Shown here: positions 34,365 to 60,908 of the stretch, piece after piece
Position numbering within the stretch: position 1 is the first letter of the stretch
Layout: every line of letters begins with the position of its first letter
Source: a virus
DNA: 64,000 nucleotides
Virus record (IMG/VR): IMGVR_UViG_3300045988_180880
Location: 256,001-320,000 of that record
Reading direction: 5' to 3' (one strand)
Notes under the pieces: generated by a model
The model's input: the letters and a program-made list of their open reading frames with translations, nothing else
What the model was told of the DNA's origin: nothing
Databases searched by the model: none
Made by a program: the position numbers and the translations under genes

Positions 34365-34366
34365 GT

Positions 34367-34951: not shown

Positions 34952-34961
34952 AAGAAATAAT

Positions 34962-34994: not shown

Positions 34995-35096
34995 AACAAA
35001 CGCGCTAGATTTTTACAACCGAAGATTAATCGCACTAGGTGCAAAAAGTAAACGGTTGATAGTTGTAAAGCGCGAGAACTATAAAATAATAAATGT

Positions 35097-35992: not shown

Positions 35993-36029
35993 AAAATGAG
36001 ATACACTATTCTCACGAACTATGTATCTC
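35991..36029 (+). repeat. REP-A hairpin, copy 3
   Basis: AAAAAATGAGATACACTATTCTCACGAACTATGTATCTC, immediately after the stop codon of the 35097 gene. Confidence 0.7.
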
Positions 36030-36046
36030 TACTTTAAATTATGATA

Positions 36047-36129
36047 ATACCTACTACGACATAGGTAATTAGTACTATTTCTATATAAAAAGTGTAGTAA
36101 AGAAATAGCACTCGTTTATTCTACTACAC
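36047..36129 (+). ncRNA. candidate pseudoknotted small RNA, copy X2
   Basis: Hairpins TACCT/AGGTA and CTATTTCT/AGAAATAG; the latter differs from X1's TATAAGTT/AACTTATA but still pairs. Loop GTGTAGTA is complementary to the downstream TACTACAC. Confidence 0.35.
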
Positions 36130-36148
36130 ATATATAAGGCTTTTAAGT
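36127..36148 (+). promoter_or_regulatory. promoter-like box CACATATATAAGGCTTTTAAGT
   Basis: Lies 44 nt upstream of the Thr-Asn-Ser tRNA cluster. Confidence 0.45.
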
Positions 36149-36192
36149 TTTATGATATTTTCTGATTTATATTTCATAATTAAATCAGAATT

Positions 36193-36266
36193 GCCTCTTT
36201 AGCTCAGTTGGCCAGAGCACGTGATTTGTAATCTCGGGGTCGTTGGTTCGAATCCGACAAGAGGCT
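36193..36266 (+). tRNA. trnT: tRNA-Thr (anticodon TGT)
   Basis: Acceptor GCCTCTT/AAGAGGC, D stem GCTC/GAGC, anticodon loop ttTGTaa (one stem mismatch), T arm GTTGG-ttcgaat-CCGAC. Confidence 0.85.
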
Positions 36267-36278
36267 CAAAAATAATAT

Positions 36279-36350
36279 TCTCCGTTAGCTCAGAGGCAGA
36301 GCATTTGACTGTTAATCAAAGGGTCGGTATATCGTAATTACCACGGAGAG
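36279..36350 (+). tRNA. trnN: tRNA-Asn (anticodon GTT) with aberrant T arm
   Basis: Acceptor TCTCCGT/ACGGAGA, D stem GCTC/GAGC, anticodon arm TTTGA-ctGTTaa-TCAAA. The T arm is GGTA-tatcgtaat-TACC and lacks TTC. Confidence 0.65.
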
Positions 36351-36358
36351 CTGTTTTA

Positions 36359-36443
36359 GGAGAGGTGGCAGAGTGGTCGATTGCGGCGGTCTTGAAAACC
36401 GTTGTACTGCGAGGTACCCGGGGTTCGAATCCCTGTCTCTCCG
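36359..36443 (+). tRNA. trnS: tRNA-Ser (anticodon TGA), type II
   Basis: Acceptor GGAGAGG/TCTCTCC, anticodon arm GCGGT-ctTGAaa-ACCGT, long variable arm, T arm CGGGG-ttcgaat-CCCTG. Confidence 0.85.
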
Positions 36444-36488
36444 CAATAATTTTAAAGATAAGAAAAATTATAAAAAAAACAATTAATT

Positions 36489-37273
36489 ATGGGAAAAGAG
36501 AAATATAACAAAGAAGAATTAATAAGATTATTAATTCATGAAGGAAAATCTTATAAAGAAGTTGCAGCTATGCGGGGTGATGGAAGCACTGGAGAAGCTA
36601 TACGTAAAGCAGCAAATAGATACGGGATAAAAGTATCAGATAGAAAGAAACTAAGAAAATGTGAATATTGTGGTAAAGAGCATGATGGTTCTTTTGGTTC
36701 TGGAAGATTTTGTTGTTCAGATTGTGCAAAGAAATATTCACTTAGTTTCAGCAAAGGTAAAAAACCAGAAGATAAATCTACTAAAGAAGAAAAAGTAGAA
36801 GAGTCTGTAAAGATAGCTCCTCCTAAGGAATGTACCACTGAATTGTCTAGATTTGATGGAAAATTAACTTCAGATTTATTAGGATATGTAGGTGAATGTG
36901 CGACAATGTTTCAATTAGCAAGAGTTGGAATTATGTCATCTAAACCTTGTGGAGTAGATAGATATGATGTAATTGCAGATATAGGAGGAATACTTTATAA
37001 AATTCAGGTTAAATCTACTGCTGGCTATATTGATAAAGATGGAGCATTATCGTACAATCTTCAAAATAAATCTGGATTATATAAAAAGGTGAAGTAGATT
37101 TCTTTGCCTTGTATAATTATGTACTTGATATTATACTATTAGTTCCCTTTAGTATACTTGAAGGTAAATATAAGGTGCGTATTCATTTTGGAAAAGAAAA
37201 AGATGAATCAGATTTATTCTTTTGGAAAGATTATATTTTATTTGATGTAGCGAAATCTTTATTATCCAGTTAA
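36489..37273 (+). CDS. HTH + zinc-ribbon + PD-(D/E)xK-type homing endonuclease, needs a -1 frameshift at AAA-AAG (37083-37088)
   Basis: Frame 0 stops at TAG 37095. The -1 frame from 37088 reads [54 protein letters not shown] to TAA 37271-37273. Upstream lies [17 protein letters not shown] (D...QxK nuclease core). Confidence 0.6.
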
Positions 37274-37286
37274 TTAATAATAAGTT

Positions 37287-37368
37287 TGTGTGATACTCAA
37301 GTGGTTAACGAGGATAGACTGTAAATCTATTAGCTTTGCTTTCGGGAGTTCGAATCTCTCTCACACAA
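37287..37368 (+). tRNA. trnY: tRNA-Tyr (anticodon GTA), type II
   Basis: Acceptor TGTGTGA/TCACACA, anticodon arm ATAGA-ctGTAaa-TCTAT, long variable arm, T arm GGGAG-ttcgaat-CTCTC. Confidence 0.85.
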
Positions 37369-37388
37369 CATAAAATAAAATTATAAAT

Positions 37389-38372
37389 ATGAAAGTAAAA
37401 AGATTTAGTAAATTAGATACTCTACAAGATTCTATAAAAATTGTAAGTAAGAAAACAGGAGAATCTCTCACAATAAATAGATTTAAATCTTTTGTAGATA
37501 TTCTTGGAAAATTTATTAAGAGACTTAGAGAATGGAGTAATAAGAGACCGTCATTTGATATTTACTTAGGTTCTGAGAAAGTAGCAGAATTAAATCTTAT
37601 AGAAAAGTCCAAAGAAGAATTAAATATAATGTGGATTGAAACTTATGAAGATTATAGAGGTAAAGGATATTCTCAGGCTATTCTAACAGAGTTGATTAGA
37701 TTTGCTAAGTCTCAAGGTTATAAATATGTTACTCTTGAAGTGCCTGGTAGATCTCCTGATGCTAGACATATTTATGAGAAGCTTGGATTTAAGGATGATG
37801 GAGTCTTGACAACCCCAGAAGAAGATTTTTATTGGGGAGGTCTTACTAGAATGAAACTTAAATTGTTTGCAAATATTACTAATGTAACAAGTTTAACTCC
37901 ATTGAAAAATATAATAACAACTACTACTAGAAAAGCTACCGGACTATCTAATTCTAAAATAGCAACACAAGCAAAGAATGCAGCATTAGATTTACACTCT
38001 GTAACTAAAGATGCTCAAAATTCTTTTATATCTCCTAATGGTAATGGATATGTAACTAAAAGTTATTTTACTAAAAGACGTCCTAAAGGAAAGAAAGTTG
38101 AGTTTGTAGGAGATTTATTTGGGAATCCTAATCAATTACAGAAACCGAAAGTTATTAATAGCAGCAGTAGTAATAAAGGAGGAAATTCTTCAATTAGTAG
38201 TTTAGATGCTAAAAGAATGAATTTAAAACGGTATAATTCTCATAAAACAAGATCTTTGGAAGTAACACCTACTGCACCTGGACAAAATGAGTGGGTTAAA
38301 CGTGTAAAAACTAATGGACAAGCTAGGTGGGAAAATAATGGGTTATATATTCCTGGTTTTGAGAAATTATAA
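37389..38372 (+). CDS. N-box GNAT acetyltransferase-domain protein
   Basis: Starts MKVKRFSKLDT. GNAT motif A YRGKGYSQAILTELIRFAK and ...IYEKLGFKDDG. The C-terminal half is low-complexity. Confidence 0.65.
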   Translation: MKVKRFSKLDTLQDSIKIVSKKTGESLTINRFKSFVDILGKFIKRLREWSNKRPSFDIYLGSEKVAELNLIEKSKEELNIMWIETYEDYRGKGYSQAILTELIRFAKSQGYKYVTLEVPGRSPDARHIYEKLGFKDDGVLTTPEEDFYWGGLTRMKLKLFANITNVTSLTPLKNIITTTTRKATGLSNSKIATQAKNAALDLHSVTKDAQNSFISPNGNGYVTKSYFTKRRPKGKKVEFVGDLFGNPNQLQKPKVINSSSSNKGGNSSISSLDAKRMNLKRYNSHKTRSLEVTPTAPGQNEWVKRVKTNGQARWENNGLYIPGFEKL

Positions 38373-38392
38373 AAAGAGAAAGGATCAAAATT

Positions 38393-40490
38393 ATGATTAA
38401 TTTCACAGACCATTTTGATCCCACTAAAAATATAGAAAAAGATTTAGCAAAAGTAGATCTTAGGGATCAATACACATCATTAACAGAAGATGAAAAGATA
38501 ATGGTATTTCTTCGTCTCAAAGGATTTACACACAGACCTCCAACGATAGAAAGATTATATTCTGATGATTATTATTTAGGTAGTCAGGAATTTTTTGATC
38601 ATGGAGATGTAATATTTCCTTTTTGGAAAGATGGATTGAAGAGAATTTTTCCAAATGAAGTTACAACAGCAAAACCATTACTCTGTTTGTCAGGAGCTAT
38701 TGGTATAGGTAAGTCTACGGTATCTAAATTAGCTATGACAAATACACTAGCTAGGTTAAGTTGTATGGCTAATCCGTGGAGAACATTTAAATTAGGTAAA
38801 AAACCACTTAGTTTTATCATCTTTCATAGAGATGAAGATGTAGCAAATGCTGAATTTCGAAGATGGATGCTAGATGATGTATTAAAGCAGAGTCCATTTT
38901 TTAGAAATTTACCACACAGACATAATATAAGAATATTAACTTCTGGTCCTAGGGGTAATGTAGTATAAAAAGTTGCCCTCCATATTAAGAAATTATATGG
39001 TAATAAAGTAAGTAAATTCGGTGAAAGGATAATCCCAATACCGAGTCAAGGATCTTAGATAAATCTAAGTAATCTTTGATGTAACGAATAAAGACTTACT
39101 AACTTATATAATTATATAAGTTAAATTTATATTCTAAACTATAATAGAGTATTATAGAAATAGATTGGCAGGTGGACTAGGAACTGACTTGATTTTTGCA
39201 ATCATGTCTGAGGTCAATTTTTGGCCTAACGAAGAAAAAGCCATGGAACGTGTAAATAGTACGTATATTCGTATTACATCTCGTTTTGATGTAAAAGAAA
39301 GTTTAACATTAGCCGGAAATCTAATAATTGATAGTTCTAGTAGAGGTGCAGGTGGTCCAACTGAAATATTTCTTGAGAATGCAGAACCTCAATTTACTTG
39401 GGATTGTAGACCTTCTCATTATGAAGTTAGAAAAAATCTGTACGAACGTTCAAGGGGAATAACTTTCTCAGTTTATACTGGAGATGGTAAATATCCTCCA
39501 AGAATATTAAATAAAAATGATAAAGAAGAGAACTATAAATTAGAAGATGATCAAGACCCTGATAGAGTGGAACATGTACCTATTCAATTATTTGGAGAAT
39601 TTAAATCTGATTTGATTAAAGCTCTTCAAGATAAATCTGGTATTAATACAGGATCATCAGATAGTTTTTTTGGAGGTACTATAGAACACTTATCTAAATG
39701 TTCAACAATAAAGAATAGAATTCCTGAAATTATTACAGTTGATTTTTATGATAAAGAAGATAGGATTATTAATCATGTAGAAAAAATGATTAATCTTATT
39801 CCAAAAGGTACTCCTATATGGCTAGGTCTTGACTTAGGTGTAGTAGATGATACAACTGGAATAGCAGCAGTTAGTTTTGATCATTGGGAAAATATAAATG
39901 GTACTTTAGTTCCTAAGGTTAAATGTCATTTTGTTTTAGGTGTATCTAGGTTAGAAGGACAAGAGACGAGTTTATTTCACATAGAGCAGTTTATAGAAGA
40001 TCTTAACAAGAAATTTAATATTATAGTTAGTGCTGACCAAGCTTTTTCTAAACAAATACTTCAATATTGTGAAAGAGAAGGAATTAGAAATAATGGGAGA
40101 ATTTCTACAGATAATACTCCTTGTGAACCGGCTCTTTATTTGAAGTATATAATAAACAATGAACTTCTTGAAATTCCTGAATATAAAAGATTACAAAGAG
40201 AGGCATATGATTTAAGATATGTTGGTCCAAAACGTAAAGTAGATCATCCTAAAAAAGCATCAATATCTCCATTATTTGATAATCCTGATGGTTCTAAGCC
40301 AGGAAGCAAGGATTTATGGGATGCTTTAGCTTCTAGTGTTTATTCTTTAAAATTATCTATTGATGAAGGAGAAGAGATGGGATATTCTTCAGGAATAGCT
40401 AAACAACTCGAATCTCTTACTAAAATAACAGCGGATCCAAGAGAAGAGTCACAAAAAGAACTTCAAAACATGTTGGAAAATATATTTTAA
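38393..40490 (+). CDS. terL: terminase large subunit, 2 exons
   Basis: join(38393..38956,39168..40490). Walker A SGAIGIGKST is in exon 1. Walker B LIFAIMSE and the RNase H-like nuclease motif WLGLDLGVVDDTTGIAAVS are in exon 2. The junction reads ILTSGPRG-AGGLGTDLIFAIMSE. Confidence 0.8.
38957..39167 (+). ncRNA. class B mini intron (211 nt, group I-like architecture) in terL
   Basis: P1 GGGGU/GCCCU (U.G at the splice site), P2 CCAUAU/AUAUGG, P3 GUAAGU/ACUUAC, proposed P7 GAAUAAA/UUUAUaUUC, P8 AACUUAUAU/AUAUAAGUU, P9 CUAUAAU/AUUAUAG. It ends GAUUG. Confidence 0.65.
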
Positions 40491-40595
40491 GATTCTTTTT
40501 CCATAATATATAATCAATTCCTAGGATGGCCAGAGGAAAGTGGTCTATTGTTCGATCAAGTCCTAGGAACAGAAAAAAAAGAAAAGAGATATATT

Positions 40596-40805
40596 TCAAT
40601 CTCTTTCTTCCATACGTTTTACAAATTCCCATTCTTCTGGAGTAACATAATCCAGAACGCTTTTTGGAATTTCTACTTCTCTATCGTTTAACATTAATTT
40701 AACTTTAACAAATAATTTATTAGGAGTAATATCTACATCAGTTACTACTCCATAAAATCCTGTTTTACGAGATTTAACTTTATCTCCTACTTTTAAATTT
40801 TTCAT
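40596..40805 (-). CDS. small hypothetical protein, lone minus-strand gene in the plus-strand module
   Basis: 69-aa ORF; GDKVKSRKTGFYGVV resembles a KOW/SH3-like beta motif. Confidence 0.45.
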   Translation of the reverse strand: MKNLKVGDKVKSRKTGFYGVVTDVDITPNKLFVKVKLMLNDREVEIPKSVLDYVTPEEWEFVKRMEERD

Positions 40806-40826
40806 AATTTTCTATATTTATTATTA

Positions 40827-40846
40827 CACATATAAGGTTTTTAGAG
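40827..40846 (+). promoter_or_regulatory. promoter-like box CACATATAAGGTTTTTAGAG
   Basis: Ends 3 nt before the ATG at 40850. Confidence 0.4.
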
Positions 40847-40849
40847 CTT

Positions 40850-41218
40850 ATGATAATACTACGAAAACAAAAATATAAAGAACTTCCCTGGACCAAAGAA
40901 AATATAGAAAAATATAAGTCACAGGAGAATATGTTAAAGCACGCAAGAAATACACCAGGAAAAACGGCTGGAAAATTATTAATAAACCCAGCCAAAGATG
41001 AGTTGGTGGGATATATAGCGTGCGAAGAAGATACTATTATTGCTCTAGAAGTTTCTCCGGGGTATAGAGGAAAAGGAATAGCAACTGATTTGATAAATTC
41101 TTCTGGGGCTAATAAACTTACAGTATCAAAGAAAAATATAAATGCGATAAATTTATATAAGAAACTTGGATTTGAAATTATATCAGAAACTCCAAAAATA
41201 TATTTTATGGAGAAATGA
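40850..41218 (+). CDS. N-box GNAT acetyltransferase
   Basis: Starts MIILRKQKYKEL. Contains YRGKGIATDLIN and NLYKKLGFE. Confidence 0.65.
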   Translation: MIILRKQKYKELPWTKENIEKYKSQENMLKHARNTPGKTAGKLLINPAKDELVGYIACEEDTIIALEVSPGYRGKGIATDLINSSGANKLTVSKKNINAINLYKKLGFEIISETPKIYFMEK

Positions 41219-41219
41219 T

Positions 41220-41291
41220 TGAACTATAGTATAATTGGCAATACACCAGATTTTGGTTCTGGGATTTCCTGTTCGAGTCAGGATAGTTCAA
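41220..41291 (+). tRNA. trnQ: tRNA-Gln (anticodon TTG)
   Basis: Acceptor TGAACTA/TAGTTCA, D arm GTAT-aattggca-ATAC, anticodon arm CCAGA-ttTTGgt-TCTGG, T arm TCCTG-ttcgagt-CAGGA. Confidence 0.85.
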
Positions 41292-41322
41292 CGAAAGAAA
41301 ATAATAATAACTAATAAAAACT

Positions 41323-41640
41323 ATGTTGAGAGTTAAAAGATTTAGTAAAGTTACTGATAAAGTTAAAGAAATAGGAAAATCTATTGAACATACAGTAACT
41401 CATCCTAAAGAAACTGGTAAGAAGGTGGTGGAGTATGTAAAGAAACACCCAGATGAAGCTATAATTCTTGGGACATCTGATATTGTTCCTGGAGTTGTTG
41501 CTGCCAAACTTGCAAAAGCTGGAAAAACAAAACAAGCAGCTATCGCAGGAACTATTGCAGCACTTCCTATTGGTGGTGCATATGTATCAGGGAAAATAGC
41601 TATTCGAAAATGGAATGAAAAAAGAAAGAAGAATAAATAG
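41323..41640 (+). CDS. small N-box protein with Gly/Ala hydrophobic segment
   Basis: Starts MLRVKRFSKVTD. Contains AAIAGTIAALPIGGAYVSG. Confidence 0.55.
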   Translation: MLRVKRFSKVTDKVKEIGKSIEHTVTHPKETGKKVVEYVKKHPDEAIILGTSDIVPGVVAAKLAKAGKTKQAAIAGTIAALPIGGAYVSGKIAIRKWNEKRKKNK

Positions 41641-41648
41641 AATAGATT

Positions 41649-41721
41649 CGAGATGTAGTTCAGTAGATAGAACGCTTGGTTTGGGACCAAGAAGTCGCAC
41701 GTTTGAGCCGTGTCATCTCGA
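41649..41721 (+). tRNA. trnP: tRNA-Pro (anticodon TGG)
   Basis: Acceptor CGAGATG/CATCTCG, D stem GTTC/GAAC, anticodon arm CTTGG-ttTGGga-CCAAG, T arm GCACG-tttgagc-CGTGT. Confidence 0.85.
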
Positions 41722-41878: not shown

Positions 41879-43327
41879 ATGATAGATACTAAATTATTAC
41901 CAGTACCTTTAGAGTATTCTTGTCCAATAGTAATGAGAGTAAAACTTCCCAGAAGAAATGATAGTGGGAGATTAAACTATTATACGTATGTTCCAGAATT
42001 AGGTACTTGGGTATTAGAAAAGATGAGAAATTCAGTTTTTAAGAAATTACAAAAATTAAATATAACTTTTAGGGACTGGGAAAATAGATGGTTACTTAAA
42101 TTACAACCATCTGATATGTATTCAGAACTTTGGGTAGATAAAATAATAGAAGTTTATTATAAAGATAAATTACCAAATACAAAAAGTTATATAAAAGATC
42201 AATTATTGTTAGATAATGATTATGTATTTACGGGTGTTATGGTTAAAGAGGATTTAATGGATATATTTATTAAATCTCGGGAGGGTAGTTTTATAGACAT
42301 AGTATATAATTATGATTTAGTACCTAAAATAATCGAAAAACTTACAGATGAAATATGTTTACAGTATTTAAATGATAATAATGAATATGAAAAATACTAT
42401 ACTACGTATTCAGATTTTATTTCAAGAGGGCTAAATTGTAGGTATTATGCTGCTAAACTTAGAAAAATAACGCTTAGTAATAAAGAATATCATTCGAGTA
42501 GATTAAAGACAACAGAAGCTTATATTACAGAATCAAAAGCTAAGTTTGGAGAAAATTCCTTTGAATATTTATCTGAATATACTGGAAGAATTGATAAAAT
42601 GACTTTTAAATGTAATAAGTGCGGAACAACTTTTTCGGTTTTAGCAAAAACACATTTAGAAAGTTCTCATGGTGGGTGTCCAGTTTGTAATACTAATTCT
42701 ATAAAAGAAGATAGAAAGTTTTCTAATCAAGACTTTCAAAATAGGTTGGATAATATTTATGGAATTGGAAAGTATAAGTTAATATCTAACTTTATCAATT
42801 GCAAGACTACTGTGGAAATTTTAGATCTTGAAACAAATACTATATTTAAACAAGATCCAGAGAATTTATTATATCATGGACTTACAGATCCTAGTACTGT
42901 TACTAAATCAAAGGGAGAACGATTAGTAGAGCTTTGGATTAATAAAAATTCAGATAAAATATTGGATTATAAGTGGAATACTAAAGTAAGTGGAATAGAG
43001 GGCAGGTGTAGAGATTATGTTATGATTGATTTTATTATTAACTATGGTGGGAAAACCATATGGATTGAATATAATGGAATTCAGCATTATACATATTTTT
43101 CACTATATCACAAATATGATAAAAATCTTTTTGATGACCAAAAAAGAAGAGATGAAAATGTAAGAATTTATTGCAAACAGAATAATATAATGTTGGTAGA
43201 AATTCCTTACACTATAAGTTCTTTTAAAAGAGTTTCTGAATTTTTAAATAAAGTAGTTTTTGAAAATATTGATCCAAGTACTTTAGTAGATTATAATCTT
43301 TTATATGAAACTACAAAAGGAAAATAA
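41879..43327 (+). CDS. freestanding homing endonuclease: zinc ribbon + Vsr/DUF559-like PD-(D/E)xK domain
   Basis: FKCNKCGTTF...GGCPVCN, then VMIDFIINYGGKTIWIEYNGIQHY...RRDENVRIYCKQNNIMLVEIPY (D...E.NG.QH...R.D...K pattern). Confidence 0.65.
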   Translation: MIDTKLLPVPLEYSCPIVMRVKLPRRNDSGRLNYYTYVPELGTWVLEKMRNSVFKKLQKLNITFRDWENRWLLKLQPSDMYSELWVDKIIEVYYKDKLPNTKSYIKDQLLLDNDYVFTGVMVKEDLMDIFIKSREGSFIDIVYNYDLVPKIIEKLTDEICLQYLNDNNEYEKYYTTYSDFISRGLNCRYYAAKLRKITLSNKEYHSSRLKTTEAYITESKAKFGENSFEYLSEYTGRIDKMTFKCNKCGTTFSVLAKTHLESSHGGCPVCNTNSIKEDRKFSNQDFQNRLDNIYGIGKYKLISNFINCKTTVEILDLETNTIFKQDPENLLYHGLTDPSTVTKSKGERLVELWINKNSDKILDYKWNTKVSGIEGRCRDYVMIDFIINYGGKTIWIEYNGIQHYTYFSLYHKYDKNLFDDQKRRDENVRIYCKQNNIMLVEIPYTISSFKRVSEFLNKVVFENIDPSTLVDYNLLYETTKGK

Positions 43328-43347
43328 TATAAAATTTAAATTGAAAT

Positions 43348-45137
43348 ATGAAATTTATTGCAAAATTGTTTTCGACAATGCTACCTGCATCTGACAGTAG
43401 TATGATACCTCGAGATGTTGCGGAATCTTTCTTTAGTAGCCAAGAGTTTAAACAAGCCTTAGAGGATAGAAAGCTCTTTGGAACATTAACACACTTAGCC
43501 AGAAATCTATCATCTGCCAAAAATGGTGGTCCTGCAGTATCTAAGACTATAGGGAAAGATGATCTCCTTTATTGCTAATAATGAGAGGCATAGATAAAAA
43601 GTTTATGAAAATGTTTTTAATTGCTGGAAAAAATAATAAATTAAATCAGCAAAAATAGATAATAAAATCTATTTCTCAACGACTAGAGTAAACACTAAGA
43701 ATACCGATTAATTCTTAGATAATATAGTCTATTATTGATTTTAAAATCAATTAGGTTAAGTTATTAATTGGCGAAAGTTCACCTACACATGTGTTAACTA
43801 AAGTTTGGTTCGAAAATGACGGCTGGTGCTATGGGGAGTTTGAGGTTCTCTCCGAAGATGGCCTAGACGATGAAGCTATACAAAGAATCAGAAGAGTAAA
43901 GGGCCTTCTTAAAAATGGTTGCAAAATTGGAATTTCCTGTGTCGTTCTTTAATTAACTGAGACTTAAGAAATTCATAAGTTCTTAAGAAAATTTCATAAA
44001 ATGCTGGAAAGGTTAGAATCAAATCAGCATCATCTAGCAGATAGCGAGATGTTCAACGACTAAAGATGGAACCTAGATTTTTAGGATAATATAGTCTAAA
44101 TTTAATAGCAAGCAATATATTAAAAAAAATTGGGATATTGGGAAAATTCTAGCGGAAGTGACTATTTAAAGCGTATGGTTGCGCTAAAAGGGGCTGACCT
44201 TACATTAAACCCTTCTTGGAAAAATGCGGGTATAGTTTCAATTGATGGTTCTGAGAGCGAAAAAACATTCTCTGAACTTGATATAGAGTATGATCCTGAA
44301 GCTTATAAGGATACAAAAATAAAAGTTAAGCAATTTTCTAACTTCGATTCGGGAGATTTATTAAAGTCTTCTAAGATTAATGGAAAGTTTACGCAATTAA
44401 AAGCTAAATCATTTTCATTTAATTCTGAAATAAATTCAATAGAAGATACTATCGTTAGTGAATCTGTAATAGAAGAACCTATTCAAAAAGATTTCTCAGT
44501 TGCTACAGTTAAAGAGAGAGTTAGAATTGGAAAGATGTCCCCTCGCCAAAGATTTCGTCTACTTGTTTTAGAATATAAGCAAGCAGTAAAACAAGCTGGT
44601 GGTTCTGAAAAGATGGATCCAGAAACACTTAAAATCATGAAGTCTTTGTTTACTACAGATCTTTTGGATATTATGAAGTCGATTACACCAGAAATCATGA
44701 ATGGAAAAAATCCAGGAACATTACTTGGTGCTTCTAGTTTAGGTAAGAATGTACGTAAATAATATGCGTTTTTTATATGAATTGCTGGAAATATCTAAAT
44801 GAGATAAATCAGCATCAAATCATACTTAGATAAATCTAAAGAAGTGATTTGTTCAACGACTATGTATATAAACTGTCAAAATAGACAGAAGATATAGTCT
44901 AAATTATAAATAAATTTTATAAATACATTGATAAGTGTACAAAAATTGTTCTTACCATATAAGATGGCTATGTCTGAGGTATCTAAAACTAATGCAATAT
45001 CTAAGGCAAGATATCAAAAAATTCAAGCTGCTTATTCTGACTTTGTTAATGCAATGTTAGAGGAAATATTCGCGCCAAAGAATGGTACGAAGAAAGAAGA
45101 GCCAGTAGAAGAAGAAAACCCTGAAGAAAACAGTTAA
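43348..45137 (+). CDS. prohead protease (HK97/S78-like) with C-terminal scaffold-like extension, 4 exons
   Basis: join(43348..43573,43771..43949,44133..44756,44931..45137). LFGTLTHLARN lies in exon 1. GLLKNGCKIGISCVVL-GYWENS spans the exon 2/3 junction and resembles the Ser-containing ..G.S.G. block. The family call is by eye only. Confidence 0.55.
43574..43770 (+). ncRNA. mini group I intron class A (about 197 nt), protease intron 1
   Basis: P3 UGUUU/AAACA. Core blocks P UAAUUGCUGGAAA, Q AAUCAGCA, R UCAACGACUAGA, S UAAUAUAGUC. P9 is AUUGAUUUU/AAAAUCAAU and it ends UAAUUG. The 5' boundary is ambiguous: P1 is either UUUAUU/GAUAAA (used here) or CUUU/GAGG ending at 43570. Confidence 0.7.
43950..44132 (+). 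ncRNA. mini group I intron class A (183 nt), protease intron 2
   Basis: P1 UCUU/GAGA, P2 CUUAAGAA/UUCUUAAG, P3 UUUCAU/AUGGAA. Core blocks P AAAUGCUGGAAA, Q AAUCAGCA, R UUCAACGACUA, S UAAUAUAGUC. It ends AAAUUG. Confidence 0.85.
44757..44930 (+). ncRNA. mini group I intron class A, P2-less (174 nt), protease intron 3
   Basis: P1 ACGU/GCGU, P3 UAUAU/AUAUA. Core blocks P GAAUUGCUGGAAA, Q AAUCAGCA, R UUCAACGACUA, S AAGAUAUAGUC. It ends ACAUUG. Confidence 0.85.
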
Positions 45138-55901: not shown

Positions 55902-58816
55902 ATGGCACAATGGACTGAAACTCTCGAACCGTATGTAAAAGTTATAGAGAGAGTACATACCGCAGCTCTTAATCCTACTGCAGGTGAAAGTTTAATTATC
56001 GGAGTGACTTTAATTTCTGATGCAGGCCCAGCAGTTCCTACACTGATCTCTAGTCAATCTGAATTCTTAAAAACTTATGCTTCAGGGGACTTAACAGAAG
56101 ATTATATGGCATCCTTGAATAATCTTTATCATGATGCTAATAATACAGGAGATAAAAATGTAGCTGCAACAATGTGGATGAATGCTTATAGATTGGCTGG
56201 CTCTAATGTTATGCTGGTTTGTAGAGCATCTAAAGCTAACGATATCTACTACGCTAAACCCATGACTAAAACTGATTATAGTACATATATCCTTAGAGAT
56301 GGTGCTTTAATGAAGGGATTTAGAGATGCTGATAAAGGTGTCGTTAAGTTTGTTCTTGATATTGATGGTGATGATGCAGAACATGATCAAGATGGATGGT
56401 CAATTAATTTGAATGGAGTAGGTATTCTTGGTAATCGTACCACCGATGATGGTCCTCAATATGATTACTATGTAAGAACTCTCCCCGACTTAGTAAATCA
56501 AATGAATGAAACTAATAAATTCTTCTCTCCATCTTATAAATTCTTCACAGATCCTAATAATATCATCTCTGAAAATGAAACAACTGATCCCGATAAAGCA
56601 AAGGCAGTTGTATTCTATGAACTTTATCTAGGACAGGATATGCTAGATACTTCAGACTCTAGATGTCCACTAGGAAAGCAGTATATCGTGATTTGTGAAC
56701 CTGATTGGACTAGTGATAATCCTAATCAAAAACTTATAGATATTAATGCTTCCGCTTGGTCTGGTTTCGAAGAACAGAAATATTATGCAGTTAATCAATA
56801 TAACTCTAATACTGATCTGAGAGTTAGAATTAGACGTTTTAATCATGATGCAGTAGTTACCAAAGAATTAACTAACCCCGCTTTGAACGAAAACTCTGAT
56901 TCTCCTTATATGGTACTATCGGCCGTTCTAGATACCTATACTAAGAAAGGAACAGTAGAACCGTCAGAAAGTATCCTACAGCGAGATTTTTATGAAGTCG
57001 CTGTTCTTGATCCTAATATTTCTGACGAAGTACAGTTCTTTAATATAGGTAAAGTAACCGGCCGTGGAGATATGGAAGTATCAGAACTCAATGAACTCCT
57101 AAGTATGATTCAACTTCAACTCCCTGACGATATGAGAGAGCTTGGATTGAACTACTATGGATACGGAGCTGATGATAAAGTATGGGTAGAACTTGATCCT
57201 AATGACCCAAATGCAGGTTCTTATAAGCAAACAGTTTCTTCAATGACTGATCTTTACAACTCAATAGGTATGTCAGTTGGAGATGTTTACCGAGTTGGAT
57301 CTGGAAGTTCATATAAGTACTATGAATATCAAGAAAATGGTGGAGATCAAGTTTATGCAAAATTAGGCGTAGATCCAACTGAAACAGATATTCTTGACGT
57401 ATCTGAATCGGATCTTAAGAAAGCACTTGACGAAATCAATATTCAGGAAATTTATGTGGTTGAAGGATTATGTGACCTTGGAAATACATCACTAAGTTTC
57501 CAGAATTACTTGGCTAATATGGCTATCAACTCTAACTATTTCTATCCAATATCAACAGTTCAGAGCACAAATTATATGACTATCGCTAATAATGCAACTA
57601 AGATAGCACAAGATTCATATAAACTCTATCTATCTGCACCTTGGGATATCGACTCTGGTACATTTGGATGGAAATATTATTGCTCACCTGCTGTTGTTTA
57701 CTGGGAAGCTGTAGCTAGAAACCGTAGAAATAATGCAGAATTTGCTCCTGTACTTGGACAAACTAATGGTATTGTTCAGTATCAGAGACCTATGACAGAG
57801 TTTAATAAAAAAACTCGTCAACTTCTATTATCTAAACGAGTAAATACTGTACTCTGGAATTATCAAACTAATGCTTGGAACATGAATGATAAACAAAATT
57901 GTCCAATTTATTGAAATTGAATTTTTATGAACTGCTGGGATTTATATAAAAAAAATAAAAATCAGCAAAAAGGATTACTAATATAAATCCTTTCTCAACG
58001 ACTAAGTATAAAAGATAAATAAATTTTATTATTTTTCAAGATATAGTCTAGCGAAATTACCAAATAATTTTCTAAAACGAATTATACTAAGCAAAGTGTG
58101 GATAATATTGTTTCAGATGAAGGTAACTCTCGTTTAGCTATTCGTATCTCAAAAGCTATGCCTGTACTACTTAAACAGTATATAGGCTGGAGAATTGCAC
58201 CAAAACTATGGGAAAGTGCGATTGGAACTATCGATTACTGGTTTAAATCAACTATTCTCCCAATGTCTTATAATATCGATGATTACCGTATTATCATCGA
58301 TGAGACAAATAACCCTGTTCAAATTCAGCGTAAATAATTGCGCCTTGGATTTTTATATTACCAAGAAAAATAAGAGAATTGCTGGAAGATAATAAAATAA
58401 ATCAGCAAAGAAAGTTTACAAAAATTTTCTCTCAACGACTATGTACTTATTAAAATGATATAGTCTGATCTTAAATATTAATCTTATATTTAAGTTTAAC
58501 AATAATGCAGAATAAAATGGTGGTTAACGTTTTGGTTAGATACCAGAGAGCTTTGAAATATGTCATCGTAAAGTATATGCGATTATTATACCAATTGCTG
58601 GAACTTAATAAATCCAAAGAATCAGCAAAAATAGATATAATTCTATTTCTCAACGACTAGATGTATAATTAAAATTTCATGAAGATTTTAAAAGATATAG
58701 TCTGAACATGAGTAGATAATACTTAGCAAACATATTGATATCACGACATTTTCGACGTTGGTATGCAACTTGCAGTCTCAGAGTACGAAGATACTAGAGG
58801 AGCAGCCCTTGAATAA
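55902..58816 (+). CDS. tail-sheath-like protein, 4 exons
   Basis: join(55902..57909,58099..58331,58508..58569,58738..58816). The N-terminus GESLIIGVTLISDAGPAVPTLISSQSEFLKTYASG resembles sheath proteins. So do the C-terminal blocks PAVVYWEAVARNRRNNAEFAPVLGQTNG, KRVNTVLWNYQTNAWNMND and NKMVVNVLVRYQRALKYVIV. The family call is by eye; the exon 2 start may be 58102. Confidence 0.6.
57910..58098 (+). ncRNA. mini group I intron class A, P2-less (about 189 nt), sheath intron 1
   Basis: P1 AAUUU/GAAUU, P3 UUUUAU/AUAAAA, P6 AGGAUU/AAUCCU. Core blocks P GAACUGCUGGGA, Q AAUCAGCA, R UCAACGACUA, S AAGAUAUAGUC. The 3' boundary is G 58098 or G 58101. Confidence 0.7.
58332..58507 (+). ncRNA. mini group I intron class A (176 nt), sheath intron 2
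   Basis: P1 GCGU/GCGC, P2 CUUGG/CCAAG, P3 UAAG/CUUA, P9 CUUAAAUAU/AUAUUUAAG. Core blocks P GAAUUGCUGGAAG, Q AAUCAGCA, R UCAACGACUA, S UGAUAUAGUC. It ends AAUAAUG. Confidence 0.8.
58570..58737 (+). ncRNA. mini group I intron class A, P2-less (168 nt), sheath intron 3
   Basis: P1 AUCGU/GCGAU, P3 UAUAC/GUAUA. Core blocks P CAAUUGCUGGAAC, Q AAUCAGCA, R UCAACGACUAGA, S AAGAUAUAGUC. It ends AUAUUG. An alternative 3' site after G 58725 would give a different C-terminal peptide. Confidence 0.75.
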
Positions 58817-58826
58817 TAAATAACAT

Positions 58827-58858
58827 GATAGTATGCTGGAGAGATCTGGCATACTATC
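58827..58858 (+). terminator. strong hairpin after the last sheath exon
   Basis: GATAGTATGC-tggagagatctg-GCATACTATC. Confidence 0.6.
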
Positions 58859-58876
58859 CTTTATAAATAATAGAAT

Positions 58877-60175
58877 ATGCAAAAATTTACAAAAGATGAA
58901 ATAATATATAATATTATTTCAAAATTAACTAAAGATATTGAATTCCTAGGATTAGAAAACTATTCAAAAGATATATCTACAAAAAAATTAAAAATTATTT
59001 TAAGATGTAAATTACATAATATAAGTAAAATTATAAAATATTCTAGTTTTATATTAAATGGATGGCATTGTCCTGAATGTTCAAAAATAAAAAGAACACT
59101 TCCAGAAAATATAGCAATAGAAAGAATACAAAAATCCATATTAAAGAAAAATAATGAAGGGAGTAATATATCTTTTTTAGGATTTGTAAATTTTTGGAAA
59201 GGCTCATCAACAAAATTGATTTTAAAATGTAATATTCATAATATTATTTGGAAAACAACGACCTATAATGGATTTATTTCGAATAATTTAATTGGTTGTC
59301 CTGAATGTTCAAAAGAAAGAAAAAAAAGAAAATTAACTAATTTAGAAGCAGAAAATAATATAATCGAATTTCATAAATCATCTTCTACAAATGAATCGTC
59401 AATATTTTGTAATATTCATAATAGCTACACAGGTTATAATTCTCCAGTTGAATTAGTTTGTTATAAACATGGAAAATTTTCATGTTATTATAGTTATTTA
59501 ATGACTGATAAAAGTAGAAATATTATACTATGTCCTAAATGTAGAGAATTATTTGAACGTGAACAGGAAAAGAAAAGATATCATAACTTAATAATAGATA
59601 GAGTAAATCATTTAAATAAAAAATATAATATATCTTTAGAATTTTTAGGATTTAAAGAAGAATTTAATTATCAAAATACATATCTAATACTAAAATGTAA
59701 TATTCATAATCATATTTGGGATACTACTAGACTAGGTATATTTTTAAAACATGAAGGAAAATACTGTATATATTGTTCAAAAACTAGTAGTATTTCGTTT
59801 ATGGAAAATTCTTTATACTCTATTTTAAATAGTTATTATTTAAACATAATTCGTCAATATAAATTAATAATAAATAATAGAATATTTTATTTAGATTTTT
59901 ACATACCAAAATTAAATGTAATAATAGAGTATGATGGAAAACAACATTATGAATTTACTTCTTTCTTTCAACCCACATATCAAAATTTCGTAAATCAAGT
60001 TAACCGAGATAGATGTTTAGAACAATATTGCAAAGAAAATAATATAAAACTTCTTCGAATTTCTTATAAAGACAATAATAGAATCCCTGAAATCATAAAG
60101 ATATTTTTCGAAGAAGGAAAAGATATAACAACAAAAGTAGAACCTAAATTATTACCAGTATTATATCATGGATAA
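58877..60175 (+). CDS. freestanding homing endonuclease: four zinc-ribbon repeats + Vsr/DUF559-like PD-(D/E)xK domain
   Basis: Four CxxH...CPxC units (CKLHN..CPECS, CNIHN..CPECS, CYKHG..CPKCR, CNIHN..CIYCS). These are followed by YLDFYIPKLNVIIEYDGKQHY...NRDRCLEQYCKENNIKLLRISY. Confidence 0.65.
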   Translation: MQKFTKDEIIYNIISKLTKDIEFLGLENYSKDISTKKLKIILRCKLHNISKIIKYSSFILNGWHCPECSKIKRTLPENIAIERIQKSILKKNNEGSNISFLGFVNFWKGSSTKLILKCNIHNIIWKTTTYNGFISNNLIGCPECSKERKKRKLTNLEAENNIIEFHKSSSTNESSIFCNIHNSYTGYNSPVELVCYKHGKFSCYYSYLMTDKSRNIILCPKCRELFEREQEKKRYHNLIIDRVNHLNKKYNISLEFLGFKEEFNYQNTYLILKCNIHNHIWDTTRLGIFLKHEGKYCIYCSKTSSISFMENSLYSILNSYYLNIIRQYKLIINNRIFYLDFYIPKLNVIIEYDGKQHYEFTSFFQPTYQNFVNQVNRDRCLEQYCKENNIKLLRISYKDNNRIPEIIKIFFEEGKDITTKVEPKLLPVLYHG

Positions 60176-60908
60176 AACATTATTAATAGATCTTAAAAAG
60201 AAGTTATTTATCAGGAGTGCTCTTATAAGTTTGACGTCTCTTGATGAAATTTTAGCCTTGAACGATTTTTTGAGTCCAGATGAGATATTACTGGAGATAA
60301 TTAAGGAGTCGTTAAGAGAATTTGAACATACCTTGCCATTGATTCTGGAGATGAAAATGAACCGTTCTCAGATGTGTAGTTGTGAGAACATGGGACTTGA
60401 AGGGTATTGTGAGATTAAGAGTAATTTTACATTATTTCTTGATTGTAAAATATCGGAAGATCAGATTATATTAATTCCAAACTCTATTCCTATGTACAGG
60501 GTGGGGTCTATATCTTATCCAGCTCCAGGAAACTATACTTACTTCACAGATTATAGACGTCCTTATGTTTTTATGATGGATATGCCCAGTTACGATCAAT
60601 TCTATATTAGAGGAATATGTAGTCGACCAATAATTCCTGACTTTCTTCCTGATAAAACGTTTAATCCAGGATCATCTAAAGCAGCTATTTATTGGCTGAA
60701 TGTAGAAGAAGGGTCGAGAGGTACATTTTTTATGGATCTCTGTATGACTCATTTACTAGACTATATTAGGAACCTAAAGGCTTCATTAATGTTACCTAAT
60801 GTTGGTTTGGAAGTTCTTAATAATATCGACGCTGCATATCAAGAGCTTAGATCTAGGTGTGATAATTATATACTCCAATCTGGATGGTATGGAGATTTAC
60901 TTGTTTAA
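60168..60908 (+). CDS. hypothetical virion-module protein
   Basis: 246-aa ORF overlapping the upstream stop. Confidence 0.55.
   Translation: MDKTLLIDLKKKLFIRSALISLTSLDEILALNDFLSPDEILLEIIKESLREFEHTLPLILEMKMNRSQMCSCENMGLEGYCEIKSNFTLFLDCKISEDQIILIPNSIPMYRVGSISYPAPGNYTYFTDYRRPYVFMMDMPSYDQFYIRGICSRPIIPDFLPDKTFNPGSSKAAIYWLNVEEGSRGTFFMDLCMTHLLDYIRNLKASLMLPNVGLEVLNNIDAAYQELRSRCDNYILQSGWYGDLLV

What the first reader, a model, noticed from the sequence alone, without database searches (positions are those of the whole stretch)
55902..58816. Tail-sheath-like gene ends in three introns packed into 830 nt, leaving a 62-nt micro-exon
After a 2008-nt first exon, the conserved C-terminal domain is split into exons of 233, 62 and 79 nt by introns of about 189, 176 and 168 nt. 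Exon 3 (58508-58569, QNKMVVNVLVRYQRALKYVIV) is flanked on both sides by ribozymes of the same family. Correct guide pairing (GCGU/GCGC upstream, AUCGU/GCGAU downstream) is therefore needed to avoid exon skipping. The last exon is invisible to ORF callers. An alternative 3' site at G 58725 would give the different tail KHIDITTFSTLV.... I prefer G 58737 because it matches the family's ...AUUG end and gives YHDIFDVGMQLAVSEYEDTRGAALE.
Basis: partly seen in the sequence, partly recalled or inferred. Interest (0 to 1): 0.75.

Follow-up and report, generated by a model that had tools for sequence, protein, structure and literature searches.

The report
Three mini-introns split phage sheath gene
The tail-sheath gene of this gut jumbo phage is cut near its 3' end by three tiny self-splicing (group I) RNA introns, a real feature but one more case of something already reported genome-wide for these phages.

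Summary
The finding is real, with one coordinate error. The gene at 55902-58816 encodes a 793-aa tail-sheath-like protein. Three ORF-less group I introns of 189, 176 and 168 nt interrupt it. Intron 1 is 57891-58079, not 57910-58098, so the exons are 1989, 252, 62 and 79 nt. Intron-less alleles in related contigs fix every junction. The ribozyme core shows strong covariation. The window holds ten introns of this family. It almost certainly comes from a "Jug" gut jumbo phage, where about 18 small group I introns per genome, partly confirmed by metatranscriptomes, are already published. The sheath case is not described there. Relatives with 98-100% identical sheath proteins use at least nine insertion sites within the last 185 codons. 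Some carry six introns and a 14-nt exon. Exon flanks co-vary with intron presence, and a variable free-standing homing-endonuclease gene lies just downstream. Intron 2 lacks the P8 helix. Verdict: a new member of a known kind, of moderate interest.

The parts
55902..57890 (+). Exon 1 of the tail-sheath-like gene (1989 nt, aa 1-663). It ends ...AAC ATG AAT GAT.
   Evidence: ORF. tblastn of the product matches q1-663 at 55902-57890. Uninterrupted homologs continue NMND|NYTKQSV.
57891..58079 (+). Intron 1 (189 nt, phase 0), a group I intron. P1 is GAU|AA / UUGUC. P2 is 57905-57920. P3 is 57922-57929 / 58007-58014. P4 is 57933-57938 / 57962-57967. P6 is 57969-57993. P7 is 58000-58004 / 58044-58048. 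P8 lies within 58015-58040 and P9 within 58049-58079. The terminal G is at 58079.
   Evidence: Model R1 gives 85.6 bits. Anatomy. Absent from L003, L005, L006 and L001, which read AATGAT|AA(C/T)TATAC. The same intron is at the same site in 19 loci.
58080..58331 (+). Exon 2 (252 nt, aa 664-747): NYTKQSVDNIVSDEG...NNPVQIQR.
58332..58507 (+). Intron 2 (176 nt, phase 0), a group I intron without a P8 hairpin. P1 is GCGU|AA / UUGCGC. P2 is 58344-58365. P3 is 58369-58376 / 58444-58451. P4 is 58380-58385 / 58402-58407. P6 is 58409-58430. P7 is 58437-58441 / 58461-58465. Only AAAATG (58452-58457) lies between the 3' strand of P3 and J8/7. P9 is 58470-58494. The terminal G is at 58507.
   Evidence: Model R1 gives 86.3 bits. 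The Rfam alignment deletes the 59 model positions of P8. The intron is exactly absent from L003 and L005. It is present in 26 of 34 loci.
58508..58569 (+). Exon 3, the micro-exon (62 nt): QNKMVVNVLVRYQRALKYVI plus the first two bases of V.
   Evidence: It is contiguous with its neighbours in the intron-less alleles L003, L005 and L027 and in all uninterrupted homologs.
58570..58737 (+). Intron 3 (168 nt, phase 2), a group I intron without P2. P1 is AUCGU|A / UGCGAU. P3 is 58585-58592 / 58662-58669. P4 is 58596-58601 / 58622-58627. P6 is 58629-58648. P7 is 58655-58659 / 58698-58702. P8 is 58670-58690. P9 is 58709-58725. A possible P10 is AUAU/AUAU. The terminal G is at 58737.
   Evidence: Model R1 gives 86.1 bits. 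Rfam gives 22.1 bits, E 0.0044. The intron is exactly absent from L003 and L027. It is present in 25 of 33 loci.
58738..58816 (+). Exon 4 (79 nt including the TAA stop at 58814-58816): (V)YHDIFDVGMQLAVSEYEDTRGAALE.
   Evidence: Homologs end ...VYHDIFDVGM.... Translation.
58827..58858 (+). A 10-bp hairpin (GATAGTATGC...GCATACTATC) just after the stop codon, followed by CTTTAT. It is probably a transcript-end or stabilising hairpin.
   Evidence: Read from the sequence. It is conserved in L001, L003 and L038. It did not pass the terminator scan's T-run rule. Rfam's 'Plastid-psbM' hit here is this hairpin.
58877..60175 (+). Free-standing homing-endonuclease-like gene (432 aa) with treble-clef zinc-finger/CapR repeats and a C-terminal DUF559-like PD-(D/E)xK nuclease region.
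   Evidence: Pfam: CapR 3.1e-13, DUF723 5.1e-5, DUF559 0.0022. PHROG 559 'HNH endonuclease' 1.6e-41, 9084 'homing endonuclease' 8.2e-17, 7140 'intron encoded nuclease' 4.6e-9. An ORF of this family fills this slot in all 33 loci with an interrupted sheath gene.

Best explanation
The gene encodes the contractile-tail sheath protein of a roughly 370-kb gut jumbo phage, very probably a Jug phage. Three independent, ORF-less, very small group I introns interrupt its conserved C-terminal part.

Proposed mechanism:
- The gene is transcribed as one pre-mRNA.
- Each intron folds into the group I core. It selects its 5' splice site with a short P1 helix that holds a U.G pair (GAU/GUC, GCGU/GCGC, AUCGU/GCGAU).
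- Each intron is removed by the two guanosine-dependent transesterifications. This joins exons of 1989, 252, 62 and 79 nt into a 793-codon mRNA.

At the DNA level the introns are mobile or recently mobile. They are presence/absence polymorphisms among near-identical phages. They were acquired separately, because they are not each other's closest relatives. They carry co-converted exon flanks. They sit next to a hypervariable free-standing homing-endonuclease gene. That gene probably cuts intron-less sheath alleles and drives gene conversion (homing in trans, or 'collaborative homing').

Shown here: the exact junctions, the fold with covariation, the polymorphism, the flank linkage and the endonuclease association.
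Inferred: that splicing happens for this gene, that it is autocatalytic, and that this endonuclease targets these sites.
For: Junctions:
- Uninterrupted homologs of 770-791 aa cover 98-100% of the spliced product.
- The nucleotide junctions match alleles that lack each intron.
- The spliced CDS is 2382 nt and has a single stop, at its end.

Ribozyme:
- Conserved UCAACGACUA and GAUAUAGUC core elements, a U at -1 and a terminal G.
- For P3, P4, P6 and P7, 90.4% of cells are paired, against 34-45% in the slid controls. All 16 pairs of P3 and P6 show changes on both sides. 0 of 500 shuffles reach the observed value.
- The model finds exactly 10 copies in the window and 68 in 22 related loci.

Sheath identity: PHROG_23. 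The top Foldseek matches are chains from T4 and KP1 tail structures.

Mobility:
- Nine insertion sites lie within aa 609-773 and none in aa 1-608.
- L001 has a 98-100% identical protein but three entirely different sites.
- The three introns share only 52-59% core identity. Their nearest relatives lie in other genes or sites.
- Flank linkage: at S45, G at +21 occurs in 19 of 19 intron-plus alleles and 0 of 15 intron-minus alleles. At S130 and S150 most intron-minus alleles have diverged flanks. At S146 the exon changes to CCUU, which matches the guide sequence.

Endonuclease:
- 33 of 33 loci with an interrupted sheath gene carry it, against 1 of 5 with an uninterrupted one.
- Its alleles are only 36-44% identical, between flanks that are 91-100% identical.
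- A second endonuclease of the same family (41879-43327) lies next to another three-intron gene in this window.

Literature: in Jug phages, splicing of 37 of 76 predicted group I introns is supported by metatranscriptome reads (PMC12880540).
Against: - There is no transcript evidence for this gene.
- All three introns score below Rfam's gathering threshold.
- P1 of intron 1 has only three exon base pairs.
- Intron 2 lacks P8, a helix of the conserved core, so it may need a helper.
- The reading frame stays open from exon 3 through intron 3 as far as P7 (ORF 58505-58660), so ribosomes could interfere with its folding.
- The sheath assignment rests on one PHROG family and a poor structure model (pLDDT 61). 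There is no Pfam hit and no PDB sequence hit.
- The endonuclease association is confounded by phylogeny. L040 has the endonuclease beside an intron-less sheath gene, and L007 has an intron in the next gene without an endonuclease.
- No single endonuclease allele maps to a single intron configuration.
Confidence: 0.88

Rival explanations
1. One reading: intron 1 spans 57910-58098, and the product reads ...NMNDKQNCPILDNIV...
For: It keeps the frame, has a U before the 5' site and a G at the 3' end. The hairpin CAATTT/AAATTG begins at that 5' site.
Against: - Every uninterrupted homolog reads NMNDNYTKQSVDNIV or a close variant.
- Alleles that lack this intron join AATGAT directly to AA(C/T)TATACTAAGCAAAGTG.
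- That hairpin sits where P2 sits in the other family members.
- The PHROG sheath score rises from 24.4 to 32.1 bits with the corrected junction.
Confidence: 0.01
2. The insertions are dead repeat elements or decayed introns that no longer splice. On this view the sheath gene of this genome is a pseudogene, or the arrangement is an assembly chimera.
For: Rfam scores are below threshold. Intron 2 lacks P8. There is no RNA evidence for this gene.
Against: - The same three-intron arrangement occurs in at least 12 independent contigs from several samples.
- The downstream exons stay in frame and 96-100% identical.
- The core helices keep pairing through compensatory changes.
- A sheath protein is indispensable to a contractile-tailed phage.
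- The P8-less intron is the most common one, in 26 of 34 loci.
- Splicing of this kind of intron is documented in Jug phages.
Confidence: 0.03
3. The introns are removed, but not autocatalytically. One or more of them, above all the P8-less intron 2 and intron 1 with its 3-bp exon pairing, needs a phage or host protein or a neighbouring ribozyme to fold and splice.
For: - Intron 2 has only AAAATG where P8 should be.
- The introns are 21-25% G+C and their peripheral elements are minimal.
- From general knowledge, many group I introns need chaperones or maturases in vivo.
Against: - P8-less relatives occur at four or more unrelated sites and genes, each with its own compensated P3. This points to a self-sufficient design.
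- No maturase-like ORF lies inside the introns.
Confidence: 0.25
4. Skipping of exon 3, or retention of an intron, is used on purpose to make a second, C-terminally different sheath-related protein or to time late expression.
For: [quoted passage not shown]
- The P1 helices of introns 2 and 3 share the core CGU/GCG.
Against: - The 62-nt exon is not a multiple of three, so skipping it shifts the frame.
- Relatives have zero to six introns at these sites and the same final protein. No particular intron set is therefore needed.
Confidence: 0.03

Closest known systems
Group I introns of Jug (jumbo gut) phages (Sci Adv 2026, PMC12880540; preprint PMC12363816)
   Same: - Same kind of genome: relatives' contigs are 362-378 kb, about 30% G+C, from human gut, and two of them appear in that paper's huge-phage table.
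- Many small introns (mean about 206 nt) interrupt essential genes, alongside many stand-alone homing endonucleases.
- Splicing of 37 of 76 predicted introns is supported by metatranscriptome reads.
   Different: - The paper describes terL, nrdD and DNA polymerase. The word 'sheath' does not occur in its main text.
- It reports about 18.5 introns per genome, whereas this 64-kb window alone holds 10. The published count may therefore be low.
- The search of its main text for 'intron' returned no passage on site-by-site polymorphism, micro-exons, flank linkage or P8-less forms; the paper was searched for terms, not read in full.
Staphylococcus phage Twort orf142: one gene with three group I introns (Landthaler and Shub 1999, PNAS 96:7005)
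   Same: Three self-splicing group I introns lie in one short stretch of a phage gene, with short internal exons. The question of exon skipping was raised there.
   Different: - The Twort paper could not be read here, so its details come from memory.
- In the present case the introns are smaller (168-189 nt) and the gene is a structural one.
- Relatives reach six introns and a 14-nt exon.
Collaborative homing or trans homing: cyanophage S-PM2 psbA intron with F-CphI, and T4 nrdB intron with MobE (PMC6083498, PMC2790892; review PMC3984707)
   Same: [quoted passage not shown] In the known cases the endonuclease's target site is the intron insertion site.
   Different: - Here one endonuclease slot faces at least nine insertion sites and several divergent endonuclease alleles.
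- Cleavage specificity is unknown.
- The endonuclease belongs to a CapR/DUF723/DUF559-like family, not to the F-CphI or MobE type.
Fungal mitochondrial cox1 intron reservoirs (Agaricus bisporus: 19 introns, exons of 3-288 nt; PMC2987802)
   Same: Many introns, 18 of the 19 of group I, are packed into one conserved gene, leaving micro-exons. Intron content varies between strains.
   Different: Those introns are 1-2.7 kb, mostly with endonuclease ORFs, and sit in an organelle. Here they are under 210 nt, ORF-less, and in a phage.
Multi-intron genes of Bastillevirinae phages (NAR 2025, PMC11878797) and crAss-like phages
   Same: Phage DNA polymerase and terminase genes are split by two or three group I introns. 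crAss-like phages also have genes with multiple self-splicing introns (cited).
   Different: The mean intron length there is about 802 nt. No sheath gene and no such density have been reported.

Membership tests
Group I self-splicing intron | Core helices P3, P4, P6 and P7, with P3 and P7 forming a pseudoknot, supported by covariation | tested here: met
   On 17 family members, 90.4% of cells are paired against 34-45% in the slid controls. All 16 pairs of P3 and P6 show changes on both sides. P4 and P7 are invariant.
Group I self-splicing intron | Conserved J6/7-P7 and J8/7-P7' sequence elements (the guanosine-binding region) | tested here: met
   UCAACGACUA and (A/G)AUAUAGUC are present in all three introns. 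They align to the matching consensus positions of RF00028.
Group I self-splicing intron | A 5' splice site after a U that forms a U.G pair in P1 with an internal guide sequence, and a terminal G at the 3' splice site | tested here: met
   GAU|AA / UUGUC, GCGU|AA / UUGCGC and AUCGU|A / UGCGAU. The introns end ...AACG...AAUG and ...AUUG. The junctions were fixed independently by intron-less alleles.
Group I self-splicing intron | A score at or above the Rfam RF00028 gathering threshold (50 bits) | tested here: not met
   The scores are 12.8, 19.7 and 22.1 bits. No hit appears in the whole-window scans. This is what one expects for very short, A+T-rich introns that lack peripheral helices.
Group I self-splicing intron | A complete P3-P9 domain including the P8 hairpin | tested here: not met
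   Introns 1 and 3 have P8. Intron 2 has only AAAATG between the 3' strand of P3 and J8/7. The same holds for the window intron at 31559-31665 and for the L004 S115 and L038 S146 introns.
Group I self-splicing intron | Guanosine-dependent self-splicing activity | not testable with these tools
   Only indirect support exists. Exons stay intact and in frame in many genomes. Metatranscriptome support is published for Jug phage introns in general.
Contractile-tail sheath protein | Sequence membership in a sheath family | tested here: met
   PHROG_23 'tail sheath': E 1e-7 over aa 454-776 for the window's product, and 16 of 19 relatives hit, best 2.6e-12. Against this, there is no Pfam hit and no PDB sequence hit, even with a profile.
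Contractile-tail sheath protein | A sheath fold comparable to solved sheath structures | tested here: inconclusive
   The AlphaFold2 model has mean pLDDT 61, and the conserved regions 1-112 and 507-678 are below 50. The five best Foldseek PDB matches are all chains of about 650 residues from tail structures of T4 and Klebsiella phage KP1 that include the sheath, but E is only 1e-3 to 3e-2 and TM is 0.2.
Collaborative or trans homing (free-standing endonuclease plus ORF-less intron) | A free-standing endonuclease gene adjacent to the gene that carries ORF-less introns | tested here: met
   The ORF at 58877-60175. It is present in 33 of 33 loci with an interrupted sheath gene and in 1 of 5 with an uninterrupted one.
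Collaborative or trans homing (free-standing endonuclease plus ORF-less intron) | The endonuclease cleaves the intron-less allele at or near the intron insertion site, and the intron protects against cleavage | not testable with these tools
   Indirect only: exon flanks are linked to intron presence, as expected for co-conversion tracts.
Jug phage clade | A genome of 360-402 kb, about 30% G+C, from human or animal gut, with many small group I introns | tested here: met
   The window has 30.7% G+C. Near-identical sheath loci lie on contigs of 362-378 kb. Two of these are listed as human-gut huge phages in the paper's table. Genome-wide identity to a named Jug genome was not tested.

The most novel reading that the evidence does not exclude
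The 3' end of this sheath gene may be a natural intron landing strip. Very small ORF-less group I ribozymes seem to turn over rapidly there between near-identical phages, and some of them lack the supposedly universal P8 helix. At least nine sites are in use, with up to six introns in 525 nt and a 14-nt exon between two ribozymes. A hypervariable neighbouring endonuclease cassette may drive the turnover, possibly as a weapon in competition between phages. If the P8-less, roughly 165-176-nt forms splice on their own, they would be among the smallest and most stripped-down natural group I ribozymes.
Probability: 0.4. Interest if true: 0.65.

Novelty: new member of a known kind. Interest (0 to 1): 0.45.

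Why it matters
- Annotation: gene callers truncate this essential structural gene to 670-746 aa in public data. The real product is 793 aa. The corrected exon map and the covariance model can repair sheath annotations, and probably many others, in Jug-type phages.
- Intron counts: ten introns in 64 kb suggests that the published figure of about 18 per genome is an underestimate.
- Evolution: the locus is a compact natural experiment. Near-identical genomes differ only in which of at least nine sites are occupied, and the exon flanks are linked to occupancy. Homing, co-conversion and intron loss can therefore be measured directly from metagenomes.
- Ribozymes: the very short introns, especially the P8-less ones, and the 14-nt and 62-nt exons shared by two ribozymes are useful test cases. 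They bear on the minimal group I architecture and on how adjacent ribozymes fold without interfering with each other.

Tried and rejected
- DNA search of the gene against GenBank phages (blastn, distant mode): no match.
- Pfam on the spliced product: nothing.
- PDB sequence search with the single protein and with a 19-sequence profile: nothing relevant.
- AlphaFold2 on the 19-sequence alignment: a poor model (pLDDT 61), so the Foldseek result is only suggestive.
- Rfam at gathering threshold: only tRNAs. The whole-window E-value scan did not recover the introns either.
- The terminator scan did not accept the hairpin after the stop codon. It flagged P1 of intron 2 as terminator-like, which is a false positive.
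- An exact search for the spliced exon 1-exon 2 junction (36-mer) in JGI metagenome contigs, meant to find cDNA-like or intron-less copies with the window's own variants, found nothing.
- The Twort paper (PMC22036) is not held.
- The Jug paper's supplementary tables are not held for the journal version. In the preprint's supplementary files 'sheath' does not occur, and the one passage with 'intron' concerns terL.
- A literature search for group I introns lacking P8 returned only unrelated 'p8' proteins. The group I database paper gave no size floor.
Full report
**What is in the sequence**

The ORF that starts at 55902 runs to a stop at 57914 (670 aa). Three segments downstream share the elements TGCTGG, TCAGCA, TCAACGACTA and GATATAGTC in the same order. 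TCAACGACTA occurs exactly ten times in the window, where about three near-matches are expected.

Rfam's group I model aligns to all three segments but below threshold. The scores are 22.1, 19.7 and 12.8 bits against a gathering score of 50. The shared elements fall on the consensus P4, J6/7-P7 and J8/7-P7' positions.

**Exon junctions**

A search with the spliced product found more than 400 relatives. Most are uninterrupted proteins of 770-791 aa that cover 98-100% of the query, on contigs of up to 396 kb. Their C-termini read ...NAWNMNDNYTKQSVDNIVSDEG...NNPVQIQRQNKMVVNVLVRYQRALKYVIVYHDIFDVGM....

It shows that junction 1 is wrong.

The corrected model has exons 55902-57890, 58080-58331, 58508-58569 and 58738-58816. 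Their lengths are 1989, 252, 62 and 79 nt. The introns are 57891-58079, 58332-58507 and 58570-58737, of 189, 176 and 168 nt. The product is 793 aa with a single stop.

At the nucleotide level, contigs that lack individual introns join the exons exactly at these points. L003 lacks all three, L005 lacks introns 1 and 2, L006 lacks intron 1 and L027 lacks intron 3. One- or two-base sliding is possible at junctions 1 and 3. The group I rule of a U before the intron and a G at its end picks the coordinates given.

**Are they group I introns?**

A helix search on the ten window copies gave the same architecture for each: P1, an optional P2, P3, P4, a small P5, P6, P7, P8 and P9. P2, P3, P6, P8 and P9 have different sequences in each copy.

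I aligned 17 cores, ten from the window and seven from relatives, and wrote the P3/P4/P6/P7 structure onto the alignment with P7 as a pseudoknot. The results:

- 90.4% of cells are standard pairs, against 34-45% when the partners are slid by 1-3 columns.
- All eight P3 pairs and all eight P6 pairs show changes on both sides.
- None of 500 shuffles reaches the observed covariation.

RNAalifold found P4, P6 and P7 independently. A covariance model built from this alignment finds exactly the ten copies in the window, at 76-93 bits.

Each sheath intron follows a U and ends in G. The P1 helices are GAU|AA / UUGUC, GCGU|AA / UUGCGC and AUCGU|A / UGCGAU.

Intron 3 has no P2. Intron 2 has no P8: only AAAATG separates the 3' strand of P3 from J8/7, and the Rfam alignment deletes the whole P8 block. 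Its P3 (AAUAAG/CUUAUU) is sound.

P8-less relatives with other compensated P3 sequences occur at 31559-31665 in the window and at sites S115 (L004) and S146 (L038). The P8-less intron at S130 is the most common of all, in 26 of 34 loci. It must therefore be removable in vivo.

**Is the gene a sheath gene?**

- PHROG_23 'tail sheath' matches aa 454-776, across all three junctions. 16 of 19 relatives match, best 2.6e-12.
- Pfam and PDB sequence searches are empty.
- The AlphaFold2 model is poor. The five best Foldseek matches are all chains of about 650 residues from tail structures of T4 and Klebsiella phage KP1 that include the sheath (E 1e-3 to 3e-2, TM 0.2).

I accept 'tail sheath' at about 85-90%.

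**Where the window comes from**

G+C is 30.7%. Relatives lie on IMG/VR contigs of 362-378 kb. Two of these contigs are listed as human-gut huge phages in the supplementary table of the Jug phage preprint.

That work (PMC12880540) reports the following:

- 2513 group I introns in 136 of 139 genomes, about 18.5 per genome, with a mean length of about 206 nt.
- Many stand-alone homing endonucleases.
- Split terL, nrdD and DNA polymerase genes.
- Metatranscriptome support for 37 of 76 predicted introns.

The sheath gene is not mentioned. The general phenomenon is therefore already known, and this is a further instance.

**Variation among relatives**

I mapped the last 175 codons onto 38 loci. This gave nine insertion sites, all between aa 609 and 773, and none in the first 608 codons:

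| Site | After aa | Note |
|---|---|---|
| S609 | 609 | |
| S45 | 663 | window intron 1 |
| S97 | 715 | |
| S115 | 733 | |
| S130 | 747 | window intron 2 |
| S140 | 758 | |
| S146 | 764 | |
| S150 | 768 | window intron 3 |
| S155 | 773 | |

Configurations seen:

- The window's set (663 + 747 + 768) occurs in 12 other complete loci (13 with the truncated L028).
- L001 and its like have a 98-100% identical protein but use 715 + 758 + 773.
- L015, L018 and L019 carry five introns.
- L035-L038 carry six introns of 187, 207, 182, 176, 175 and 169 nt. Their exons are 1989, 156, 54, 42, 48, 14 and 79 nt, and they still splice to an intact 793-codon frame.

The window's 62-nt exon is therefore not the extreme. 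In those genomes it is itself split into 48 and 14 nt.

The three window introns share only 52-59% core identity with each other. Each is closer to an intron in another gene or site. They are independent acquisitions, not duplications.

**Signs of DNA-level mobility**

Exon flanks are linked to intron presence:

- At S45, all 19 intron-containing alleles have G at +21 and none of the 15 intron-less alleles does.
- At S130, six of eight intron-less alleles read CAACGA|CAAAATAAG. They have no U at -1 and no match to the guide sequence.
- At S146, all seven intron-containing alleles read GCCCTT, which pairs with that intron's guide GAGAGG. Intron-less alleles read GCTTT.
- At S150, seven of eight intron-less alleles have diverged flanks.

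This is the pattern expected from co-conversion during homing, from co-adaptation of exon and guide sequence, or from both.

Directly after the sheath stop and a conserved hairpin lies a 432-aa ORF. It has CapR and DUF723 zinc-finger repeats, a DUF559-like nuclease region and strong PHROG matches to homing endonucleases.

- An ORF of this family fills that slot in all 33 loci with an interrupted sheath gene.
- Of five loci with uninterrupted sheath genes, four lack it (L007, L020, L041, L042). L040 has a shorter one, together with an intron in the next gene.
- By hand calculation the hypergeometric p is about 7e-5. It is not corrected for phylogeny.
- The endonuclease alleles are only 36-44% identical to each other, while the flanking genes are 91-100% identical. 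This looks like cassette replacement.
- Elsewhere in the window, a second endonuclease of the same family (41879-43327) sits just upstream of another gene cut by three introns (43608, 43988 and 44769).

The closest described mechanism is collaborative or trans homing: S-PM2 psbA with F-CphI, and T4 nrdB with MobE (PMC3984707, PMC6083498, PMC2790892). Cleavage specificity was not testable here, and no simple allele-to-site mapping emerged.

The P1 helices of introns 2 and 3 share the core CGU/GCG, so some cross-recognition is conceivable. Each guide sequence, however, lies within 10-15 nt of its own splice site. Skipping 62 nt would also shift the frame. Nothing here tests this. It is a reasonable caution, not a finding.

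**Comparison and verdict**

Precedents:

- Three group I introns in one phage gene have a precedent in Twort orf142 (title cited; the paper is not held).
- Genes with two or three introns are known in Bastillevirinae, where the mean intron length is 802 nt, and in crAss-like phages.
- Micro-exons down to 3 nt are known in fungal mitochondrial cox1.
- The genome-wide intron load of Jug phages is published.

What is new here is limited to four things:

- The sheath gene as a host.
- The corrected gene model.
- The density and turnover of sites in this short region.
- The P8-less subfamily.

I rate it a new member of a known kind, with moderate interest. Direct RNA evidence and ribozyme assays are still needed.

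Noticed in passing
L038:5136-6545 (also L035-L037): Relatives with a near-identical sheath protein carry six group I introns in the last 175 codons. This leaves exons of 156, 54, 42, 48 and 14 nt. The 14-nt exon AAATATGTCATCGT (L038:6363-6376) lies between two ribozymes. Removing the six introns restores an intact 793-codon frame.
   Followed up: yes
window 58332-58507 and 31559-31665; L004:6200-6365; L038:6188-6362: A subfamily of these group I introns has no P8 hairpin: 5-7 nt join the 3' strand of P3 to J8/7. Each member has its own compensated P3. I know of no natural precedent, and a literature search found none. Activity is untested.
   Followed up: partly
window 41879-45137: A second free-standing endonuclease of the same family (482 aa, PHROG 559/9084) sits directly upstream of a gene of unknown function. 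That gene is broken by three introns (cores at 43608-43731, 43988-44098 and 44769-44901). This is the same layout as at the sheath locus, with the endonuclease on the other side.
   Followed up: partly
window 6997-8008 (- strand): A PhoH-like gene is split into 7706-8008 and 6997-7590 by a family member whose core is at 7546-7672. Its guide sequence UUGUCC is the same as that of sheath intron 1.
   Followed up: partly
window 31559-31665, 32571-32693, 35648-35773; 30990-31427: Three more introns of the family lie in genes of unknown function. An endonuclease-like fragment (30% identity to aa 285-422 of the sheath-adjacent endonuclease) lies just upstream of the first.
   Followed up: no
window 57969-57993 versus 35698-35722; window 43608-43731 versus L001:6738-6855: Introns at different sites share modules. 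P6 of sheath intron 1 is identical to P6 of the intron at 35720. The sheath S155 intron of L001 has 82% core identity to the window intron at 43676, but a different guide sequence. This suggests recombination between introns, or retargeting by a change of guide sequence.
   Followed up: partly
window 60168-60908 (gene after the endonuclease); L005:6980-7127, L029:7345-7492 and 7878-7995, L007:5685-5783, L040:~7325: The 246-aa gene downstream is uninterrupted in the window. In relatives it carries introns after about codon 19 and about codon 131, including in L007, which has no endonuclease and no sheath introns.
   Followed up: partly
window 58505-58660: The exon 3 reading frame stays open for 30 codons into intron 3, as far as the TAG inside P7. 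Introns 1 and 2 have in-frame stops after 8 and 2 codons. Ribosomes reading unspliced RNA could unfold the core of intron 3.
   Followed up: no
P0001 / L003:2613-4853: The intron-less close relative lacks 47 residues of the variable middle domain, corresponding to window aa 179-225. This is either a real deletion or an assembly artefact. Its contig ends just after the sheath gene, so it is unknown whether an endonuclease gene follows.
   Followed up: no
window 58822-58892 and 58328-58343: Two tool false positives. Rfam's 'Plastid-psbM 3'UTR' hit (33.7 bits) is just the hairpin after the sheath stop. The terminator scan's only hit is the P1 helix of intron 2.
   Followed up: yes
window 24848-41721: Nine tRNA genes are present, at 24848, 27169, 30664, 36193, 36279, 36359, 37287, 41220 and 41649. 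None of them is interrupted by an intron of this family.
   Followed up: no
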